Source: Ignavibacteria bacterium (lineage in GTDB: Bacteria; Bacteroidota; Ignavibacteria; UBA10030). From it: 64,000 nt of DNA. The notes below the pieces were generated by a model. It worked only from the letters and a program-made list of their open reading frames with translations. It was not told the DNA's origin and did not search any database. The position numbers were made by a program, and so were the translations under genes. How positions within the stretch are numbered: position 1 is the stretch's first letter; every line of letters starts with the position of its first letter. The stretch covers positions 3,387-67,386 of the forward strand of contig VGWB01000001.1 of assembly GCA_016873755.1 (NCBI GenBank). Direction: 5' to 3'. Shown one piece after another: positions 57,199-64,000 of the stretch.

Positions 57199-58821
57199 AT
57201 GAAGAAGAAGTTCTCAGGATGGGCTGTTTTGGCCCTGGTTATTGTAGGCCTGTTCGCAGGAATGGAGATCAACCAGCTTATCTCCGGAGACACGCCGTAC
57301 GAGCAGGCGAACAAGTTCAGGGAAATCCTCCAGCTAACCGAAAAGTACTATGTAGAGGAAGTCGACGCGAAAATGCTGACCGAGGCGGCTGTCGAGGGAC
57401 TGCTGGGCAAGCTTGATCCACATTCGGTGTACATACCCCAGCGGGCATATGACTTGGTGCGGGAAGAGTTCCGAGGTAAGTTCGAAGGGATCGGTATCCG
57501 TTTCACCATTCGCAATGATTCCATCTTTGTTGCGGAGACCATAGGCGGTGGCCCGTCGGCTCGTCTGGGAATTCAGACGAACGACCGTATTGTTCGCATT
57601 AACGACTCCTCTTCAGTCGGCTTCACCAACGATCAGGTCATCCAACGGCTGAGGGGGCCCAAAGGGTCCAAGGTCAAGGTTTCGATTGCACGCCCCGGCG
57701 TCAGAGAGTTACTCGACTTTGAGATCATCCGGGACGAGATCGCGCTCACGAGCGTGGATATCTCGATGATGGTGGACGACGAGGTTGGATACGTGAGCGT
57801 CAACCGCTTCAGTGAGCGCACGGATGCCGAACTTGTGGAGGCCCTCCGGAGCTTGCGGACAAAAGGTATGAAGCGACTGATTCTTGACCTTCGCGACAAC
57901 CCGGGCGGACTTCTGGAGCAGGCGTTCAAGATTGCTGACCTTTTTCTTGACGAAGGCACAAAAGAGAAGCCGCACAAGATTGTCTATACGACAGCCCGCC
58001 GCTCGGAGTTTGACGAAGCCTATTTTGCCAGGACGGGCCACGCTTATGAGAACCTTCCTTTGATCGTCTTGCTGAACAACACGTCGGCCAGTGCGAGCGA
58101 AATTGTCGCCGGGGCCATCCAGGACTGGGACCGGGGATTGGTCGTTGGCGAGACGAGCTTTGGCAAGGGGCTCGTGCAGCGGCAGTTCCCGCTGTCCGAT
58201 GGATCGGGGCTGCGGCTGACGATTGCCCGCTACTACACCCCGAGCGGACGCTCGATTCAGCGCGAATACGAAGGCAAAGAACGGCAGGCATATCAGCGTG
58301 AGGCGTTCCAACGTCAGGAGCGGGAAGGCGAAAATATTGAACATAGGTCGGAGGGCGATTCGTCGCGGCCGGTTTTCCGCACGAATGCCGGCCGGATGGT
58401 CTACGGCGGGGGAGGGATAACGCCGGATTATGTGGTAAAGAACCAGCCGCTGAGCTCGTTGACACAGAGCATGCTGCGGCGCGGACTCTTTGAGCAGTTT
58501 GTGACCGCGTATTTGGACGGAAAAGGACTGAAAATCCGCTCCGCATTTGGCAACGACCCAACCCGGTTCAGGCAATCGTTCACCGCTTCGGACGAAATCC
58601 TCAAAGACTTCCGATCGTTTGTTGATCAACAGAACATCAAGATTATCGAGAAAGAGTATGAGCAGGACCTCGCCTTCATCAAGACGAGGCTCAAGGCGAC
58701 ATTCGCCAGAAACTTCTGGGGGAATGATGGGTGGTATCGCATCATGCTACAGATCGATGCCCCCTTCCACAAAGCGCTCAGCCTCTTCCCAGAGGCGGAA
58801 AAGATCGCCAGGTTAAACTAG
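57199..58821 (+). CDS. Carboxyl-terminal processing peptidase (S41, tail-specific protease family)
   Basis: RBS AAAGAGGAG, then a signal/anchor 'MKKKFSGWAVLALVIVGLFAG'. A PDZ region 'GIGIRFTIRNDSIFVAETIGGGPSARLGIQTNDRIVRIND' follows. S41 catalytic motifs are 'LILDLRDNPGGLLEQA' and 'TSFGKGLVQ'. Confidence 0.8.
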   Translation: MKKKFSGWAVLALVIVGLFAGMEINQLISGDTPYEQANKFREILQLTEKYYVEEVDAKMLTEAAVEGLLGKLDPHSVYIPQRAYDLVREEFRGKFEGIGIRFTIRNDSIFVAETIGGGPSARLGIQTNDRIVRINDSSSVGFTNDQVIQRLRGPKGSKVKVSIARPGVRELLDFEIIRDEIALTSVDISMMVDDEVGYVSVNRFSERTDAELVEALRSLRTKGMKRLILDLRDNPGGLLEQAFKIADLFLDEGTKEKPHKIVYTTARRSEFDEAYFARTGHAYENLPLIVLLNNTSASASEIVAGAIQDWDRGLVVGETSFGKGLVQRQFPLSDGSGLRLTIARYYTPSGRSIQREYEGKERQAYQREAFQRQEREGENIEHRSEGDSSRPVFRTNAGRMVYGGGGITPDYVVKNQPLSSLTQSMLRRGLFEQFVTAYLDGKGLKIRSAFGNDPTRFRQSFTASDEILKDFRSFVDQQNIKIIEKEYEQDLAFIKTRLKATFARNFWGNDGWYRIMLQIDAPFHKALSLFPEAEKIARLN

Positions 58822-58826
58822 GGGGG

Positions 58827-59714
58827 ATGATGAAGAGGCGACGCGGCTGGTGGTTAGCGGTATTGCCGGTGTTCATTGGTCTGCTCTTCCTGGGCCTTGG
58901 GGTCGGAAGTTCGCAACCTGTGGCAGAGGCACAAGCGGAACATCCGTCGGAGTTGCTCGCTGTAACAACCGGCGGGATGTTGCAGGTGGGCGAAGAGCTT
59001 GAGTATGACGTCAGCTACTCGTTTTTCCACATTGGGACGATCCGGACATGCGTGGTCGATAGAGAGTTCCGAAACGGCAAAATGGTCTACAAGAGCGTGG
59101 CGTACATCGATTCCAATCCGAGCCTCAGCTGGCTCGTTGACCTGCATATTCGCTTCTATAGCGAGATTGATGACAGCGTCTTTTCGTATGCCTGGATCAG
59201 CGACGACAGCACGGAAAAAGAGATCTACTTTCGCCGGTTCAAGTTCGACTACTCGAACAACCGAGCGCTGCTGGAAAAAGGCAAGATAGTTCCTGGGGGT
59301 GCCCGAGCGGTCGAGGGCATAGATACGGTGTCGATCACAGAACGATGCCAGGACGGTCTCTCATTGTATTACTATGCGCGTGAAAATGTGCGCCAGAAGA
59401 AGCAGGTCCGTGTGGCAACGCTGATCGAAAGGAAGCAGGAGTACACTTTCATCAATTTCACGAACAAGAAATCCGGAGTCGAGATTGATGCAGTTAACCA
59501 TCTCGTCGAAGTCGTCGAATTCGATGGCAAGGCGGAGTACGTTGGTGTTTTTGGCCTCACCGGGGGGTTCCGGGGCTGGTTCAGCAATGATGACGCACGG
59601 ATTCCCGTTCTGGCGAGAATGAACGTGATTCTCGGGAGCATTAAGATAGAACTTGTCAGATGGACTCGAACCGGCTGGCAACCTCCTCTGTACGTTGAGG
59701 AGGCAGAGAGGTGA
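58827..59714 (+). CDS. Hypothetical secreted protein (possibly DUF3108-like)
   Basis: Signal peptide 'MMKRRRGWWLAVLPVFIGLLFLGLGVGS'. No catalytic motif recognised. Its stop overlaps the next gene (ATGA). Confidence 0.5.
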   Translation: MMKRRRGWWLAVLPVFIGLLFLGLGVGSSQPVAEAQAEHPSELLAVTTGGMLQVGEELEYDVSYSFFHIGTIRTCVVDREFRNGKMVYKSVAYIDSNPSLSWLVDLHIRFYSEIDDSVFSYAWISDDSTEKEIYFRRFKFDYSNNRALLEKGKIVPGGARAVEGIDTVSITERCQDGLSLYYYARENVRQKKQVRVATLIERKQEYTFINFTNKKSGVEIDAVNHLVEVVEFDGKAEYVGVFGLTGGFRGWFSNDDARIPVLARMNVILGSIKIELVRWTRTGWQPPLYVEEAER

Positions 59715-60140
59715 TCATTTCCTATCCGGGCATCTCGCCAAAAATGCACGCATCGGTGTTTGTTGCCGAGGATGCCCACATCGTTGGCGATGTCAAGATC
59801 GGCGAGGACGGCAGTGTATGGTTCAACTCAGTTGTCCGTGGGGATGTGAACTTTGTTCGCATCGGGAAAGGCACAAATGCTCAGGATAATTGCGTCCTGC
59901 ATGTGACCCACCAGAAACATCCCCTTCAATTGCCTGATCGGCATTGGGGCAGAAGTACTCGACGATGCGAAGGTCGGGCCCTGCGCCTTGGTGGCGGCAG
60001 GTTCGGCGGTCACGGTGGGCTTTGAGGTGCCAGAAGGTGTGCCTGCGCGTATCAAGCGGATGCTGACAGCCGAAGAGCGCCGGCACATCGAACAATCTGC
60101 ACGGAGCTACGTAGAGCATGTCAAGATCTATCGTTCCTGA
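59711..60140 (+). pseudogene. Gamma-class carbonic anhydrase / hexapeptide-repeat (YrdA/PaaY-like) gene disrupted by a ~60-bp internal deletion and frameshift
   Basis: The N-terminal 93 aa are canonical, '...IGKGTNAQDNCVLHVTHQKHPL'. The frame then breaks. The +1 frame continues as the canonical C-terminus, 'NCLIGIGAEVLDDAKVGPCALVAAGSAVTVGFEVPEGVPARIKRMLTAEERRHIEQSARSYVEHV'. The missing segment corresponds to 'IGDxVTVGHxAxLHGCTIGD', which contains two Zn-ligand His. Confidence 0.5.
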
Positions 60141-60158
60141 ATCCCAGAAGAGGTCGCC

Positions 60159-61058
60159 ATGAAACTCACGGTCTGGGGAGTCCGTGGCTCCGTCCCGACT
60201 CCCGGGAAGCACACAGTTCGGTACGGCGGAAACACGCCCTGTCTCGAGCTTCGACTTGACGACGACAGCCTCATTATTCTGGATGCCGGGACGGGGATTC
60301 GCAATTTCGGAGATCATCTCATCAACAATGGGGAATCGGTGCACGCCTATCTTCTCGTTACGCATCCCCATTGGGATCACATCCAAGGATTTCCCTTTTT
60401 CAAGCCGGCATTTATCTCGGGGAACGAGCTCACCATCTTCGGGACGGAGCGTCCGGAGAAGTCTTTGAGCGAAATCATCTCCGAGCAGATGAACCGGATC
60501 TACTTTCCGGTCCAGCTTCACGAATTGAAAGCGAAGCTCAATTTCAAGCCGATCAAGGAAGAAGGGGAGATGAAGATCTATGGCTGCACGGTGAAGACTC
60601 TGTACGTCAATCATCCGGGATTCACGGTCGGCTATCGGATCGAGTACAACGGAAAGACGCTTGTGTACATTAGCGACAACGAGCCGTATGACCGCGAGGC
60701 TGCTGCTTCTCTGTCGAACTTTGAAGCAGCGGTGAAGGCGAAGTTTGATTCGAAGAAAGGCGATCCGAACCAGCGAGTGTTCGACTTTTGCACGGGAGCT
60801 GATGTGTTACTCCACGATGCAACCTACACGCCGGAGGAGTACATCGACCGCGTCGGCTGGGGTCATTCCCATTACCTCTTTACACTACGTGTCGCTGCGC
60901 AGGCGGATGTGAAGCGGCTCTACTTGTTCCATCACGACCCGAACCACAGCGACGACAAAGTTGACGAAATCCTCAAGAAATGCAAAAAGGAGGTCAAGAC
61001 GCGTGGGTACAAGTTCGATTGCGAGGCGGCAGCAGAGGGAGGGGTAGTCACGATCTAA
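60159..61058 (+). CDS. MBL-fold metallo-hydrolase (PhnP / RNase Z-like subgroup)
   Basis: 'SLIILDAGTGIRNFG' and 'YLLVTHPHWDHIQGFPFF' (HxHxDH) are present. 299 aa. Confidence 0.8.
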   Translation: MKLTVWGVRGSVPTPGKHTVRYGGNTPCLELRLDDDSLIILDAGTGIRNFGDHLINNGESVHAYLLVTHPHWDHIQGFPFFKPAFISGNELTIFGTERPEKSLSEIISEQMNRIYFPVQLHELKAKLNFKPIKEEGEMKIYGCTVKTLYVNHPGFTVGYRIEYNGKTLVYISDNEPYDREAAASLSNFEAAVKAKFDSKKGDPNQRVFDFCTGADVLLHDATYTPEEYIDRVGWGHSHYLFTLRVAAQADVKRLYLFHHDPNHSDDKVDEILKKCKKEVKTRGYKFDCEAAAEGGVVTI

Positions 61059-61059
61059 C

Positions 61060-61088
61060 TTGACAATCAGCCGCAGCAAGATTATATT
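61060..61088 (+). promoter_or_regulatory. Consensus sigma70-type promoter TTGACA-N17-TATATT
   Basis: TTGACA at 61060-61065, a 17-nt spacer, then TATATT at 61083-61088. About 240 bp of apparently non-coding sequence follow before the next credible ATG at 61330. Confidence 0.5.
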
Positions 61089-61329
61089 TATCTCAGGGAT
61101 TGCTTTACGAGCCGTTGTTATGCCCCTGTTATTCAATGGGTTAGCATATGACCGGGTCGGTGAGAGGTCTCGAGGGGCAATGTGTTGTGGGCTGATCGAA
61201 GAGGGAATATTGACTGTGATAAGATGCCGGTGTCTTCTCCGTTACCCCGAGTTGCAGGCGACTTGACGCGATAGGGTGGCAAATCGGGGTTTTTCATTGC
61301 ACGAGATCGATGATCGCATAGGGAAAGCC

Positions 61330-61845
61330 ATGCAGTTCGCATTCCAAGAGTCCGACATCAGAAAGATTTCTCAGATCCTTGGTATTTCCGCCAAGCATCG
61401 AGGCAGCAACTATCGTTTCGAGGTCGAGAACAAGACTCTCAACCGGAAGCTGGCGCTGGAGATCTATCCGGATATCAATATCGGTCAGCGTCGCGGGAGC
61501 CTCGTCTCAGTCTACACGCCGACGGCGCACCTTCAGCTCCATTTTTGCACGGGATATGTTGTCAGCAAATTGCTGGGCGAGATTACCTTCGTTGCCGAAT
61601 CGAACGGCAAGCTCTCAGGACTGACGGTCGAGCGGGAAGGAGGGTGCTCGCTCTATGCTAACGTCGATCGTTCAATTCTCTCTGGTGATTTTACGACGCT
61701 TGGTCCGGAGGTAATGCTTTCTGGTATCGCGCTGTCGCTCACCGAGAACATCCTTCCGCAACCCACTCCATCCAAACGGGGGACGAAGGGAGAACACACA
61801 GCACGGGAGAAAGGAAAACGAAAGCCAAGGCCAAAGGCTGGATGA
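61330..61845 (+). CDS. Hypothetical protein with a Lys-rich C-terminal tail
   Basis: ORF with good codon usage that ends 'GTKGEHTAREKGKRKPRPKAG'. The ATG at 61330 is preferred over the GTG at 61276. Its stop overlaps the ybeY start. Confidence 0.45.
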   Translation: MQFAFQESDIRKISQILGISAKHRGSNYRFEVENKTLNRKLALEIYPDINIGQRRGSLVSVYTPTAHLQLHFCTGYVVSKLLGEITFVAESNGKLSGLTVEREGGCSLYANVDRSILSGDFTTLGPEVMLSGIALSLTENILPQPTPSKRGTKGEHTAREKGKRKPRPKAG

Positions 61846-62291
61846 TTTTCGTCTCAAATAATCACCCGTCTCTTCGGTTTTCGAGGCGGGAAACCTTCCG
61901 GACCGTCAAAAGCGTTCTAGAAGAGGAACTTGTGCCGTCGCTCAGTGTGTCTGTGGTATTTGTGGGGAGCCGTTTCATTCAACGCATCAACCGGCGATTT
62001 CTGAATCACAACCACATCACGGACGTCATTGCGTTTCCATTTCGGGATGGCCAGGGAGTTGATGCTGAGGTCTACGTGAATCTGGATCGCGCAAAAAGTC
62101 AGGCGCGTGAGCTTGGGATCAGCTATGCAGATGAGGCGCGCCGGCTCCTGATACACGGGATTCTCCACGTGCTCGGGTATACAGATCACACAACGGGAGG
62201 GAGATCTCGGATGAGACGACGAGAGGATTTCCTCCTCGCGTTACTCTCAAGTGCTAAGAGGCATAGATCGCATGCAAGAGCGAATCGTTGA
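61842..62291 (+). CDS. ybeY: rRNA maturation endoribonuclease YbeY
   Basis: 'HGILHVLGYTDH' is the YbeY zinc-binding H3xH5xH motif. 149 aa. Confidence 0.85.
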   Translation: MIFVSNNHPSLRFSRRETFRTVKSVLEEELVPSLSVSVVFVGSRFIQRINRRFLNHNHITDVIAFPFRDGQGVDAEVYVNLDRAKSQARELGISYADEARRLLIHGILHVLGYTDHTTGGRSRMRRREDFLLALLSSAKRHRSHARANR

Positions 62292-62727
62292 AATCATTCT
62301 CTTCCTCGTCAACGAGCTGAAATCCAACAAGCAGCTCAGCGAGGTGGACGTCTCCTTACTGACCGACAGCGGCTATACCCCTACGGAGATCTCTACGGCG
62401 TTTTCGTGGCTCTTCGAGCGGCTGTCCATTGGCCAGCAGCTTGTTTCGGAGGAGCGCGACACACGCCTGTCGCACCGTGTCCTGCACGAGGCCGAGAAAA
62501 TGATCGTTACGCCCGAAGCCTACGGCTATTTGCTGCAGTGCCGCCAGCTTGGGTTGCTTTCCAACGCGGACATCGAGACAATTATCGAGAAGATCATGGC
62601 TGCGGGGTTTTCCACGGTCGGTGTGCCGGAAATGAAAAGTTTTGTGGCCGGTGTGCTGCTCGATTCGGGCAATCAGCCGCGAATGAGCGGGCGAATCTCG
62701 CTAAACAGTACTGATACCATCCACTAG
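62272..62727 (+). CDS. smg: Smg (DUF494) family protein
   Basis: 'MQERIVEIILFLVNEL...LTDSGYTPTEISTAFSWLFERL' matches the Smg/DUF494 pattern. It lies immediately upstream of topA, a linkage seen in many bacteria. Confidence 0.6.
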   Translation: MQERIVEIILFLVNELKSNKQLSEVDVSLLTDSGYTPTEISTAFSWLFERLSIGQQLVSEERDTRLSHRVLHEAEKMIVTPEAYGYLLQCRQLGLLSNADIETIIEKIMAAGFSTVGVPEMKSFVAGVLLDSGNQPRMSGRISLNSTDTIH

Positions 62728-62738
62728 CGTTCGGGTTC

Positions 62739-64000
62739 ATGGAAAAATCCTTAATCATCGTTGAGTCCCCATCCAAGGCGAAGACTATCAACAAATACCT
62801 TGGGAAAGACTACGTTGTCGAAGCATCGGTGGGGCACATCAAGAATTTGCCGAAAAGCAAACTTGGGGTAGATGTTGACAATGGCTTCGAGGTGACGTAC
62901 GAATTCATCAAGGGGAAAGACGAGGTCATCAAGAAGCTCCGAGATAAGGCGGCGAAGGCAAAAGAGATCTATCTGGCAACTGATCCTGACCGGGAGGGGG
63001 AAGCGATCGCGGCTCACCTCGCAGACGAAATCAAGCCTGCCAACAAGAGAATCAAGCGCGTCCTCTTTCATGAGATCACCGCTGCAGGTGTGAGAGAGGG
63101 GATGCGCCATCCGAAGAAGATCGATACGCATCTTGCGCTGTCACAACAAGCCCGCCGAGCGATGGATCGCATCGTGGGGTACAAGGTGAGCCCGTTTGTC
63201 TGGAAAACCTTCTACTACGGCCTGTCTGCGGGACGCGTGCAATCAGTCGCGCTGCGGCTGATTTGTGAGCGGGAAGAGTTGATCAGGGGTTTCGTTGCAG
63301 AGGAATACTGGTCGATTACGGGTGAGTTTCAGACGGTTCAAAGCGAGCCGTTCCTGGCGAAGTTGACCAGGGTGGCGGGCCAAGAGCCCCGGATTCCCGA
63401 CGAAACGACGATGAAGGGATACCTGGGGGAGATCGAAAAGCAGCGCTTTGAGATCACGGGTGTAGAGCGAAAGCCCGTGAGGCGAAATCCGCCTGCGCCG
63501 TTCATCACCAGCACATTGCAGCAAGAGGCCGCCCGGCGCCTGCGCTTCTCGACGAAGCGGACGATGATGCTTGCACAGAGACTGTACGAAGGTGTCGAAG
63601 TGGGGGAGGAGGGCCTCACGGGACTTATCACGTACATGCGAACGGATTCGACGCGGCTGAGCGCGGAGGCGATTACTCACGTCCGTGAGTACATCTACGC
63701 CAACTACGGAAAAGAATACGTGCCGAAGGAGCCTCGCCTGTTCAAGAAAGGGAAATCCTCCCAGGACGCGCACGAAGCCATTCGTCCGACATCCCTCAGA
63801 CTGACGCCGAAAGTGGTCAAGAGGTATCTCGACAAAGAACTGTACCTTCTCTACGAGCTGATTTGGAACCGGTTCGTGGCCTGCCAGATGACACCGGCCG
63901 AGTTTGAACAAATCTCGGTCGACGTGACAGGCGGGGAGTACCTCTTCCGTGCCACGGATCAGCGGCCGAGATTCAGGGGCTTCCTGCAAGTATACGACGA
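62739..64000 (+). CDS. topA: DNA topoisomerase I; 5' portion, continues past the window end
   Basis: A TOPRIM domain 'SLIIVESPSKAKTINKYLG...ATDPDREGEAIAAHL' and the topoisomerase IA region 'LSQQARRAMDRIVGYKVSPFVWK'. The frame is still open at position 64000. Confidence 0.9.
   Translation, partial: MEKSLIIVESPSKAKTINKYLGKDYVVEASVGHIKNLPKSKLGVDVDNGFEVTYEFIKGKDEVIKKLRDKAAKAKEIYLATDPDREGEAIAAHLADEIKPANKRIKRVLFHEITAAGVREGMRHPKKIDTHLALSQQARRAMDRIVGYKVSPFVWKTFYYGLSAGRVQSVALRLICEREELIRGFVAEEYWSITGEFQTVQSEPFLAKLTRVAGQEPRIPDETTMKGYLGEIEKQRFEITGVERKPVRRNPPAPFITSTLQQEAARRLRFSTKRTMMLAQRLYEGVEVGEEGLTGLITYMRTDSTRLSAEAITHVREYIYANYGKEYVPKEPRLFKKGKSSQDAHEAIRPTSLRLTPKVVKRYLDKELYLLYELIWNRFVACQMTPAEFEQISVDVTGGEYLFRATDQRPRFRGFLQVYD

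What the first reader, a model, noticed from the sequence alone, without database searches (positions are those of the whole stretch)
61060..61329. Candidate small RNA, or 48-aa Cys-rich peptide, driven by a consensus promoter between the MBL-hydrolase and a hypothetical gene
A perfect TTGACA-N17-TATATT promoter is followed by ~240 nt with no credible long ORF. The only ORF starts inside the -35 box. Its internal ATG at 61120 would give a 48-aa peptide with the Cys pattern 'AMCCGLIEEGILTVIRCRC'. The segment ends in a G-rich element followed by a T5 run ('...GGCAAATCGGGGTTTTTCATT', 61281-61296), resembling an intrinsic terminator with a weak stem. A ~200-nt transcript such as a 6S-like or regulatory sRNA, or a tiny Cys-rich protein, is plausible.
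Basis: seen in the sequence. Interest (0 to 1): 0.5.

Follow-up and report, generated by a model that had tools for sequence, protein, structure and literature searches.

The report
Conserved 200-nt noncoding RNA unit
A near-consensus promoter and a genuine terminator, both conserved in more than a hundred related Ignavibacteria genomes, bracket about 200 bases that most likely make a non-coding RNA (not a peptide, not 6S RNA) directly in front of the ybeY operon, in a slot that sister lineages fill with a cold-shock protein gene.

Summary
The promoter is real. TTGACA-N17-TATATT (61060-61088) is the only 11/12 match in 64 kb, and the motif is kept right after the MBL-hydrolase stop codon in 125 of 136 related loci. 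This intrinsic terminator is conserved with compensatory changes in about 80 loci. The predicted transcript is about 200 nt (about 61095-61294) and ends 35 nt before the ATG of a highly conserved hypothetical gene fused to ybeY.

The 48-aa Cys-rich ORF is not coding. Its dN/dS is 0.82, against 0.04-0.05 in the flanking genes, and it stops early in the nearest relatives. Nothing supports 6S or any Rfam family, and no conserved fold was found.

Constraint is modular: the first 57 nt, a 19-nt block and the terminator arms are conserved, while the linkers drift at about the synonymous rate.

Sister lineages carry an intact cspA-family gene between the same promoter and terminator. Some carry decayed csp remnants, and others have the promoter directly at the gene.

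Best reading: a non-coding leader/sRNA unit whose terminator gates read-through into the hyp-ybeY operon. Whether it acts in trans, and whether it derives from csp, is unresolved.

The parts
60159..61058 (+). Upstream gene: MBL-fold hydrolase with weak RNase Z-like similarity. Its stop codon TAA 61056-61058 lies one base before the -35 box.
   Evidence: The ORF is listed. Pfam Lactamase_B_2 matches at E 4e-19. NCBIfam RNase Z models match only below their cut-offs.
61060..61065 (+). -35 hexamer TTGACA
   Evidence: Found. 'CTTGACA(A/T)T' is kept at this position, right after the MBL stop codon, in 125 of 136 distinct related loci.
61083..61088 (+). -10 hexamer TATATT, with a 17-nt spacer
   Evidence: Found. 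'TATATT' is invariant in the relatives listed.
61095..61294 (+). Predicted non-coding transcript of about 200 nt. The start is inferred at A61095 or G61096, 7-8 nt after the -10. The 3' end is placed in the U-tract.
   Evidence: This is inferred from the promoter and terminator positions; no expression data exist. No Rfam family matches. The ORFs are not conserved.
61095..61151 (+). Conserved 5' domain. Conservation is at the sequence level, with no conserved fold shown. It contains two copies of GTTAKGC 22 nt apart.
   Evidence: Only 1 of 57 positions differs from L089, against 0.288 at four-fold sites. It aligns without gaps across 11 relatives. The alifold energy is only -1.7 kcal/mol. The window's MFE hairpin is not kept in L008, L009, L090 or L091.
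61152..61194 (+). Fast-evolving linker 1. It contains the population SNPs at 61186 and 61188.
   Evidence: 17 of 43 positions differ from L089. It cannot be aligned with L008/L009 and carries indels. The SNPs are shown.
61195..61213 (+). Conserved 19-nt block ATCGAAGAGGGAATATTGA. It is purine-rich, and AGGGAA resembles the RBS of the downstream gene.
   Evidence: 0 of 19 positions differ from L089 (P=0.0016). The pattern AGGG-N3-4-TTGA-N-T-N2-GA is kept in L008, L009 and L090.
61214..61243 (+). Fast-evolving linker 2
   Evidence: 11 of 30 positions differ from L089.
61245..61289 (+). Intrinsic terminator hairpin. The 5' arm is CCCCGAGTTGC (61245-61255), the loop is 23 nt, and the 3' arm is GCAAATCGGGG (61279-61289).
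   Evidence: dG is -18.6 to -19.8 kcal/mol. The closing pair has probability 0.82 in the ensemble of the whole transcript. The arms show 0 of 12 and 0 of 17 differences from L089, while the loop shows 6 of 23. On the covariance-model alignment, 96.9% of cells are paired and 7 of 11 pairs carry compensatory changes; 0 of 500 shuffles reach this.
61290..61294 (+). U-tract (T5) of the terminator
   Evidence: Shown. A run of 4-7 T follows the hairpin in the relatives.
61295..61329 (+). Post-terminator spacer, which is the 5' UTR/RBS of the downstream gene in read-through transcripts.
   Evidence: 3 of 34 positions differ from L089. The hairpin ends 31-47 nt before the ATG in most NC and csp loci. 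No promoter-like site lies here.
61330..61845 (+). Downstream conserved hypothetical gene (171 aa), whose stop overlaps the ybeY start. Start at ATG 61330, not at GTG 61276.
   Evidence: The homologue alignment fixes the N-terminus. No Pfam or NCBIfam family matches. ybeY lies at 61842-62291.

Best explanation
The interval is a non-coding transcription unit that doubles as the leader of the downstream operon.

A strong sigma-70-type promoter (61060-61088) fires at about 61095. RNA polymerase transcribes about 200 nt and meets an intrinsic terminator (hairpin 61245-61289, U-tract 61290-61294) 35 nt before the ATG of the hypothetical gene. That gene is translationally coupled to ybeY and is followed by DUF494/smg, topA and further genes.

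Most transcripts stop there and give a discrete RNA of about 200 nt. The fraction that reads through is the mRNA of the hyp-ybeY operon, which has no recognisable promoter of its own. The terminator therefore works as an attenuator that sets, and possibly regulates, operon expression. It also ends transcription coming from the upstream MBL operon.

Shown: the promoter and terminator motifs, their conservation and covariation, the absence of coding potential, and modular purifying selection on the first 57 nt, a 19-nt block and the terminator arms.

Inferred: the transcription start, the termination itself, and the dependence of the operon on read-through.

Speculative: read-through is modulated by RNA chaperones of the cold-shock family. 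These are known to weaken intrinsic terminators in E. coli, and the orthologous slot holds a cspA-family gene in sister lineages. Also speculative: the terminated RNA has a trans function through its conserved, apparently unstructured segments.
For: - Promoter: an 11/12 match, unique in the window. The motif is present at the same place in 125 of 136 distinct related loci.
- Terminator: unique in the window and folding with P=0.82 in the full transcript. Hairpins of dG about -10 to -34 kcal/mol followed by T-runs occur in most of the 94 distinct sequences folded, and the inner stems differ in sequence but still pair. A model built from the window subfamily finds the same element just upstream of hyp in 60-odd loci, including csp-type ones, and almost nowhere else in 400 kb. 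On that alignment 96.9% of cells pair, 7 of 11 pairs show compensatory change, and 0 of 500 shuffles match this.
- Leader role, part 1: the hairpin ends 31-47 nt before the ATG in most loci that have it. No second promoter-like site of at least 9/12 lies in 58000-64000.
- Leader role, part 2: in 34 'short' loci the same promoter sits 26-117 nt before the hyp ATG with no terminator, so this promoter is the operon's promoter.
- Non-coding: shown.
- Selection: the whole unit evolves 2-5 times slower than four-fold sites in close pairs. Against L089 the pattern is modular: 1/57, 17/43, 0/19, 11/30, 0/12, 6/23, 0/17 and 3/34 differences along the unit, with a neutral proxy of 0.288.
- Csp link, part 1: 21 loci carry an intact cspA-family gene between the equivalent promoter and terminator. 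L044 and L049 carry clear decayed csp remnants in the slot, L071 a weaker one, and L078 matches only at the terminator end of the csp profile.
- Csp link, part 2: Csp proteins attenuate intrinsic termination in E. coli (PMC9765468, citing Bae et al. 2000, PMC16622).
Against: - There are no expression data. The start site, termination efficiency and read-through are all inferred.
- No alternative (antiterminator) pairing is conserved. The nearly isoenergetic alternative fold in the window (block GGG 61203-61205 with CCC 61245-61247) involves invariant bases only, so it carries no covariation. The CUCGAGGGG segment that could pair with the 5' arm is already lost in L089.
- No conserved secondary structure was found outside the terminator.
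- No motif is shared across the whole non-coding clade beyond what shuffles give. A single conserved mechanism for all 66 loci is therefore not demonstrated.
- The element has been deleted in the 'short' lineages, so it is dispensable.
- Promoters of other sigma factors would not have been seen by the scan.
- Four-fold sites are an imperfect neutral proxy.
Confidence: 0.55

Rival explanations
1. It is an independent trans-acting small RNA gene. The 200-nt terminated RNA is the functional product. Its conserved unstructured segments (61095-61151 and 61195-61213) are seed or protein-binding regions, and read-through into hyp-ybeY is incidental.
For: The architecture is typical of base-pairing sRNAs: a strong promoter, conserved segments that appear single-stranded, fast-evolving linkers, and a terminator hairpin with a U-tail. 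The element turns over quickly between subfamilies while its ends are kept. In the 24-member sister subfamily, the conserved part is an AU/CA-rich stretch directly before the terminator.
Against: The same promoter directly drives hyp in 34 loci, and no other promoter for hyp is visible, so the unit cannot be purely independent. No targets can be predicted from a 64-kb window. Whether the genome has Hfq or ProQ is unknown. This reading is not exclusive of the leader reading.
Confidence: 0.2
2. It is an evolutionary relic with no RNA-level function. A cspA-family gene once sat between this promoter and terminator and its coding sequence has decayed. Only the promoter (needed for hyp-ybeY) and the terminator (needed to end the MBL operon or to damp the strong promoter) are under selection.
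For: The slot holds csp in a sister clade. Within that clade csp has decayed at least twice to non-coding inserts of 174-240 nt that keep the promoter and terminator: L044/L049, and more weakly L071. Two linkers in the window drift at about the synonymous rate. No conserved fold was found. The terminator model hits csp-type terminators, with L040 at E 6e-6.
Against: The window element and the whole non-coding clade show no residual csp similarity (tblastn, nhmmer and hmmsearch all E>0.2). The 57-nt 5' domain and the 19-nt block are far more conserved than neutral (P about 1e-7 and 0.002), which a pure relic does not explain. The insert length of 140-310 nt is kept across a deep clade despite bacterial deletion bias. 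Polarity is unresolved: L080, which has a non-coding insert, groups with the csp clade, so simple parsimony can equally favour csp insertion into a pre-existing leader.
Confidence: 0.15
3. It is a small protein gene: the 48-aa Cys-rich ORF 61120-61266, or a shorter ORF such as the TTG at 61209.
For: The frame is open in the window and in L089. An SD-like GAGGG precedes the TTG at 61209.
Against: Omega is 0.82, against 0.04-0.05 in the flanking genes. 18 of 48 residues differ at 97% flank identity, including 2 of the 4 Cys. The frame stops at codon 4 in L009 and at codon 14 in L008/L090. A population variant changes Cys to Arg. There is no SD before ATG 61120. The only peptide similarity across subfamilies lies over the nucleotide-conserved terminator. 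Pfam gives no hit.
Confidence: 0.02
4. It is a known structured RNA: 6S RNA, a riboswitch or another Rfam leader, or a cspA-type thermosensor.
For: Only the size (about 200 nt), the strong promoter, and the terminator close to a downstream ORF point this way.
Against: Rfam 15 gives no hit at gathering score in the window or in 20 related loci. In the interval, the only hit at E<=10 is a chance folP match on the minus strand. The MFE z-score is +0.86. There is no covariation-supported fold outside the terminator. The interior is not conserved across the clade, unlike any aptamer.
Confidence: 0.03

Closest known systems
5'-UTR-derived small RNAs made by premature termination. Examples are terminated riboswitch leaders such as Listeria SreA/SreB and E. 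coli SroA/SroG. These examples are from my own knowledge and were not checked here.
   Same: A promoter, a leader of about 100-250 nt and an intrinsic terminator lie a few tens of nt before the first gene of an operon. The terminated leader accumulates as a discrete small RNA, and read-through yields the mRNA.
   Different: No ligand-binding aptamer and no conserved fold is present. No conserved antiterminator pairing was found. The interior turns over quickly between subfamilies.
Csp-sensitive intrinsic terminators, such as those inside the E. coli metY-nusA-infB-rbfA-rpsO-pnp operon and the SgrS terminator
   Same: An intrinsic terminator sits upstream of genes for RNA and ribosome maturation; here those include ybeY, and the ribosome hibernation factor S30AE lies further down the operon in related contigs. 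In sister lineages a csp gene lies immediately upstream of this terminator. Csp proteins reduce termination at such sites in E. coli (PMC9765468).
   Different: Nothing here shows that Csp acts on this terminator. The window strain has no csp gene in the slot, and none is detectable in the 64 kb.
cspA-family gene unit: strong promoter, long 5' UTR, 66-70-aa CDS, terminator
   Same: The genomic slot is the same, between the MBL hydrolase and hyp. The -35/-10 consensus is the same and sits right after the MBL stop. The terminator is of the same type, CCCCGA...TCGGGGTTTT, about 40 nt before hyp.
   Different: The window has no cold-shock-domain coding sequence and no detectable remnant of one. 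It shows no similarity to the csp 5' UTRs of the sister clade.
6S RNA
   Same: Its length is about 200 nt and it has a strong housekeeping-type promoter.
   Different: There is no match to RF00013 or the 6S-Flavo model. There is no rod-like fold with a central bubble; the 5' end forms its own hairpin and the 3' end is a terminator. The fold is not unusually stable.

Membership tests
sigma-70-type promoter | -35 TTGACA and -10 TATAAT-like hexamers separated by 16-18 nt | tested here: met
   An 11/12 match with a 17-nt spacer, unique in 64 kb with 0.05 expected by chance. The motif is conserved in 125 of 136 related loci.
sigma-70-type promoter | Transcription actually starts about 7 nt downstream of the -10 | not testable with these tools
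   No transcriptome or 5'-end data are available.
intrinsic (Rho-independent) terminator | A G+C-rich hairpin immediately followed by a U-tract | tested here: met
   The stem is 61245-61255/61279-61289 with dG about -19 kcal/mol, followed by T5 at 61290-61294. It is unique in the window.
intrinsic (Rho-independent) terminator | Pairing is maintained in evolution by compensatory changes | tested here: met
   96.9% of cells are paired and 7 of 11 pairs show changes on both sides. 0 of 500 shuffles reach this, and slid controls give 28-59% paired. The alignment was fitted to the model, which favours pairing.
6S RNA | Match to the Rfam 6S covariance models | tested here: not met
   No hit at gathering score or at E<=10.
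6S RNA | Extended rod with paired 5' and 3' ends and a central bubble | tested here: not met
   The MFE and centroid structures show a 5' hairpin plus a 3' terminator. The z-score is +0.86.
riboswitch / structured cis-regulatory leader | A conserved aptamer fold supported by covariation | tested here: not met
   The alifold energy of the 5' domain is -1.7 kcal/mol. The window's hairpin is not kept in its nearest relatives. No motif is shared across the clade. Rfam gives nothing.
riboswitch / structured cis-regulatory leader | A terminator a few tens of nt upstream of the regulated ORF, with mutually exclusive antiterminator pairing | tested here: inconclusive
   The terminator position fits, at 35 nt before the ATG. 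An alternative fold within 0.7 kcal/mol exists, but it has no covariation and is not kept in L089.
small protein gene | An ORF conserved in relatives under purifying selection, with an RBS | tested here: not met
   Omega is 0.82, there are premature stops in L008, L009 and L090, and there is no SD before ATG 61120.
csp pseudogene / relic | Residual similarity to a cold-shock-domain coding sequence | tested here: not met
   The window's best hits are E 3.3 with tblastn and E 6.3 with hmmsearch. nhmmer gives none, whereas L044 and L049 score 1e-15 to 5e-35.
csp pseudogene / relic | Positional homology to an intact csp unit: same flanks, promoter and terminator | tested here: met
   The direction of change is unresolved.
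Hfq/ProQ-dependent base-pairing sRNA | A chaperone is present in the genome, the RNA binds it, and mRNA targets exist | not testable with these tools
   Only 64 kb of the genome is available, and no interaction data exist.

The most novel reading that the evidence does not exclude
The unit is a regulatory RNA born from a cold-shock gene. After the csp coding sequence was lost, its strong promoter and Csp-responsive terminator were retained. The intervening sequence was re-shaped under selection into a non-coding RNA. That RNA either titrates Csp-type chaperones or serves as their sensor, coupling hyp-ybeY (ribosome/RNA quality control) expression to chaperone levels or temperature.
Probability: 0.15. 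Interest if true: 0.65.

Novelty: new member of a known kind. Interest (0 to 1): 0.4.

Why it matters
If transcription data confirm it, this would be an uncatalogued, clade-wide non-coding RNA/leader of Ignavibacteria, which no Rfam family matched here. It controls access to an operon that contains the universally conserved RNase YbeY and a very conserved protein of unknown fold.

The comparative series is the more interesting part. The same promoter-terminator cassette carries an intact csp gene, decaying csp remnants, a constrained non-coding insert, or nothing. That gives a natural experiment on how a coding unit and a non-coding unit can replace each other, and on whether intrinsic terminators next to csp genes are chaperone-responsive outside the Proteobacteria.

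It also shows that these Ignavibacteria, which GTDB places in Bacteroidota, keep a canonical TTGACA/TATAAT-type promoter at this locus. In practical terms, it removes a false small-protein candidate.

Tried and rejected
- Rfam at gathering score and at E<=10 on the window and on 20 related loci gave nothing usable.
- A covariance model of the window's predicted 5' hairpin (61096-61171) did not transfer. L008, L009, L090 and L091 align with many non-canonical pairs, so I do not claim that fold.
- RNAalifold on the 11-sequence 5' domain and on the 24-sequence sister subfamily found only the terminator.
- I thought I saw a clade-wide 'GGAGG' / 'UUGA..GACAACA' motif. A k-mer test against shuffles does not support it beyond the window and sister subfamilies.
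- Searches for csp remnants in the non-coding clade with tblastn, a nucleotide profile and a protein HMM were negative; only L044, L049, L071 and L078 in the csp clade score.
- The candidate antiterminator CUCGAGGGG (61168-61176) is not kept in L089.
- The two population SNPs are not explained by any well-supported pairing.
- The element is not a repeat; nothing else in the 64 kb resembles it.
- Fold prediction for the downstream protein gave no PDB match that could hint at a ligand or partner.
- Literature searches found nothing on Ignavibacteria small RNAs.
- The polarity of csp versus the non-coding state could not be settled from the midpoint-rooted NJ tree.

Full report
**Context.** The window comes from an Ignavibacteria MAG population. 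The downstream protein is identical to 'FJ217_00240, Ignavibacteria bacterium', and the exact MBL protein is found on Lake Tanganyika-type JGI and Logan contigs. The interval 61059-61329 lies between an MBL-fold hydrolase (60159-61058) and a 171-aa hypothetical gene (61330-61845). The stop of that gene overlaps the start of ybeY (61842-62291). DUF494/smg follows in the window, and topA, a tyrosine recombinase, the S30AE hibernation factor and hprK follow on the related contigs. An alignment of 20 homologues fixes the start of the hypothetical gene at ATG 61330, not at GTG 61276.

**The promoter.** TTGACA (61060-61065), a 17-nt spacer and TATATT (61083-61088) are present. This is the only site in 64 kb within one mismatch of the consensus, with 0.05 expected by chance.

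**The terminator.** CCCCGAGTTGC (61245-61255) pairs with GCAAATCGGGG (61279-61289) with one mismatch and a 23-nt loop, and T5 follows at 61290-61294. The hairpin has dG about -19 kcal/mol. The pattern CCCCG-N20-50-CGGGGTTTT is unique in the window, with 0.04 expected. The consensus terminator scan missed it because it only allows loops of 3-8 nt. In the ensemble of the whole predicted transcript, the terminator's closing pair has probability 0.82.

**Relatives.** I fetched 160 related loci through the downstream protein. Among 136 distinct loci with enough upstream sequence, 125 have TTGAC(A/T/C)-N15-19-TAnA(T/A)T, and it sits at or within a few tens of nt of the MBL stop codon. What lies between this promoter and the hyp ATG falls into classes:
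- 66 loci have a non-coding insert with 140-310 nt between the -10 and the hyp ATG. The regular expression finds a CCCC...GGGG-T-run hairpin in 60 of these.
- 21 loci have an intact cspA-family gene (66-70 aa) with a 5' UTR of 36-300 nt, and 18 of these have the same kind of terminator.
- 4 loci in the csp clade have lost the intact gene: two with clear csp remnants, one with a weak one, and one matching only the terminator end of the csp profile.
- 34 'short' loci have the promoter 26-117 nt from the ATG and no terminator.
- 11 loci have no promoter match.

Where the hairpin is present, it ends 31-47 nt before the ATG in most loci.

**Terminator covariation.** A covariance model built from six terminators of the window subfamily finds the element just upstream of hyp in 60-odd loci, including csp-type loci (L040 E 6e-6, L058 E 1e-5). 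It finds essentially nothing else in 400 kb. On that alignment 96.9% of cells pair and 7 of 11 pairs show compensatory changes. No shuffle out of 500 reaches this, and slid controls pair at 28-59%. The alignment is model-fitted, which favours pairing. However, the raw hairpins already show different inner stems that still pair: GAGTTGC/GCAAATC, GCGTCTC/GAGAC, GATTGCTCAG/CTGAGCAG and GAGTGTTCAC/GTGAACAG.

**No peptide.** The 48-codon frame from ATG 61120 is open in the window and in L089, the closest distinct relative (97% identical in hyp).
- 18 of 48 residues differ, including 2 of the 4 Cys.
- Nei-Gojobori omega is 0.82, like the out-of-frame controls (0.28 and 0.85), whereas hyp and MBL give 0.05 and 0.04.
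- The frame stops after 3 codons in L009 and after 13 in L008/L090.
- The L010 group has no ATG at that position.
- Six of the eight assemblies compared (the window and seven related contigs) carry TGTCGC instead of TGTTGT at 61183-61188, which turns a Cys into an Arg.
- Across all subfamilies, the only ORF-to-ORF similarity lies over the nucleotide-conserved terminator.

**No known RNA family.**
- Rfam 15 gives nothing at gathering score in the window or in 20 related loci. At E<=10 it gives only a chance folP match on the wrong strand.
- The 206-nt RNA folds no better than dinucleotide shuffles (z +0.86).
- The 5' end is predicted to form its own hairpin (61096-61171) and does not pair with the 3' end, so a 6S-like rod is excluded.
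- That 5' hairpin is not conserved. RNAalifold on 11 gaplessly aligned relatives gives -1.7 kcal/mol. A model built on the hairpin aligns L008, L009, L090 and L091 with many non-canonical pairs.

**Selection on the interior, which matters for function.** In close pairs the whole unit diverges 2-5 times more slowly than four-fold degenerate sites of the flanking genes. Between the window and L089 the alignment is gapless and the four-fold divergence is 0.288. The pattern is modular:

| Segment | Coordinates | Differences |
|---|---|---|
| 5' domain | 61095-61151 | 1/57 |
| Linker 1 | 61152-61194 | 17/43 |
| Block ATCGAAGAGGGAATATTGA | 61195-61213 | 0/19 |
| Linker 2 | 61214-61243 | 11/30 |
| Terminator 5' arm | 61244-61255 | 0/12 |
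| Terminator loop | 61256-61278 | 6/23 |
| Terminator 3' arm and U-tract | 61279-61295 | 0/17 |
| Post-terminator spacer | 61296-61329 | 3/34 |

The 5' domain is alignable without gaps in the window, L089, L090, L008, L009 and L091, in the L010 group and in L017. The 19-nt block is recognisable in L008, L009 and L090. Beyond these subfamilies the interior is not conserved: 24 sequence clusters exist, and shared k-mers do not exceed shuffles. The element is not repeated elsewhere in the window.

**The csp connection.** A neighbour-joining tree of MBL plus hyp splits the loci into two clades. In one, the slot holds csp. In the other, which contains the window, it holds the non-coding insert, and the 'short' loci are nested inside it.
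- Inside the csp clade, L044 and L049 keep only the C-terminal half of csp (tblastn E about 1e-15 to 1e-18, nhmmer E 5e-35 and 4e-29, hmmsearch E 1e-15 and 4e-12).
- L071 keeps a weaker nucleotide-level trace (nhmmer E 2e-9, hmmsearch E 0.04). L078 matches only the terminator end of the csp profile (nhmmer E 4e-6).
- All four retain the promoter and terminator. Decay from csp to a non-coding insert therefore happens.
- The window and its whole clade show no residual csp similarity by any of the three methods (best E>0.2). They also show no similarity to the csp 5' UTRs.
- Polarity is open. L080, which has a non-coding insert, groups with the csp clade, so plain parsimony can also favour insertion of csp into a pre-existing leader.

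**Mechanism.** No other promoter-like site of at least 9/12 exists in 58000-64000, and the same promoter directly abuts hyp in 34 loci. It is therefore most likely the operon promoter, and in the window its transcripts must pass the terminator to reach hyp-ybeY.

I read the unit as a terminated leader. It produces an abundant RNA of about 200 nt and a limited amount of read-through mRNA, and the terminator also stops transcription coming from the MBL operon.

Whether read-through is regulated is unknown. An alternative fold only 0.7 kcal/mol below the best fold that contains the terminator pairs the conserved block (GGG 61203-61205) with the base of the terminator (CCC 61245-61247). It has no covariation, and another candidate antiterminator is lost in L089.

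A testable idea comes from the synteny. Cold-shock-domain proteins weaken intrinsic terminators in E. coli, both at the metY-nusA-infB operon and at sRNA terminators (PMC9765468, which cites Bae et al. 2000). This terminator may be chaperone-responsive, whether csp is encoded in cis (sister clade) or elsewhere (window clade).

The conserved, apparently unstructured 5' domain and block would equally suit a trans-acting sRNA. The data do not separate the two readings, and they are not exclusive.

**Verdict.** The peptide and 6S readings are rejected. The element is an uncatalogued non-coding transcription unit/leader, conserved across an Ignavibacteria clade. It is a new member of a known kind, with an unusual and informative evolutionary relation to a cold-shock gene. 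All statements about transcription are inferences from sequence.

Noticed in passing
window 59711-60140 (+): The hexapeptide-repeat (gamma-carbonic-anhydrase-like) gene upstream of the MBL gene is broken. The N-terminal part (59711-60025) and the C-terminal part (59988-60140) are in different frames, and about 90 nt of the middle is missing. The same break appears in seven independent assemblies (L001-L007). Relatives L008-L028 have both parts in one frame. It therefore looks like a real pseudogene in this population, not a sequencing error.
   Followed up: partly
window 61330-61845 (+): The downstream hypothetical protein is very conserved (2951 homologues, 65-88% identity across the clade) but has no Pfam or NCBIfam family. 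AlphaFold gives a confident all-beta domain (pLDDT above 85 for residues 1-110) plus a disordered Lys/Arg-rich tail. Foldseek finds no PDB match better than E 0.2. Its stop overlaps the ybeY start.
   Followed up: partly
L040, L042, L073 and perhaps L079: 5' UTR of the csp gene upstream of hyp: The csp genes with long 5' UTRs (137-300 nt) share a long-range inverted repeat (ACACATAGACC ... GGTCTAT(G/T)(A/G)TGTT) in the UTR. It might be a thermosensor-like hairpin. Rfam gave no hit in L040, L073 or L079; L042 was not scanned.
   Followed up: no
window 61186 and 61188: There are two linked population variants: TGTTGTG in the window and L005, and TGTCGCG in six other assemblies. They lie in the fast-evolving linker. 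They are not explained by any well-supported base pair, and they change Cys to Arg in the rejected ORF.
   Followed up: partly
window 61117-61123 and 61139-61145: The conserved 5' domain carries two similar heptamers, GTTATGC and GTTAGCA, 22 nt apart. Both are kept in the relatives with this 5' domain (window subfamily and L010 group), as GTTAGNC and GTTAGC in the L010 group, and only loosely in L017. They could be a protein-binding site on the RNA or on the DNA.
   Followed up: no
L010, L093, L096, L097 (upstream of hyp): This subgroup keeps the window-type 5' domain but lacks the CCCCG...CGGGG terminator. L010 instead ends in a different hairpin, AGAGAGG...TTTCTCT followed by T's, about 25 nt before the ATG. 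This suggests terminator replacement rather than loss.
   Followed up: no
window 61842-62291 (+), and L001-L005: The public gene calls on five of the seven related contigs miss ybeY and instead call a 79-90-aa ORF on the opposite strand. The + strand ORF matches Pfam YbeY at E 2.5e-24.
   Followed up: no
L008-L167, promoter position: Three promoter flavours track the content of the slot: TTGACAATC-N-GGTTATATT (mostly non-coding inserts), TTGACATTGAT with an 18-nt spacer (the main csp clade), and TTGACATTCA-N-GGAATGTATATTGGCGTGGGTT (short type). All are canonical -35/-10 promoters in a lineage that GTDB places in Bacteroidota.
   Followed up: partly
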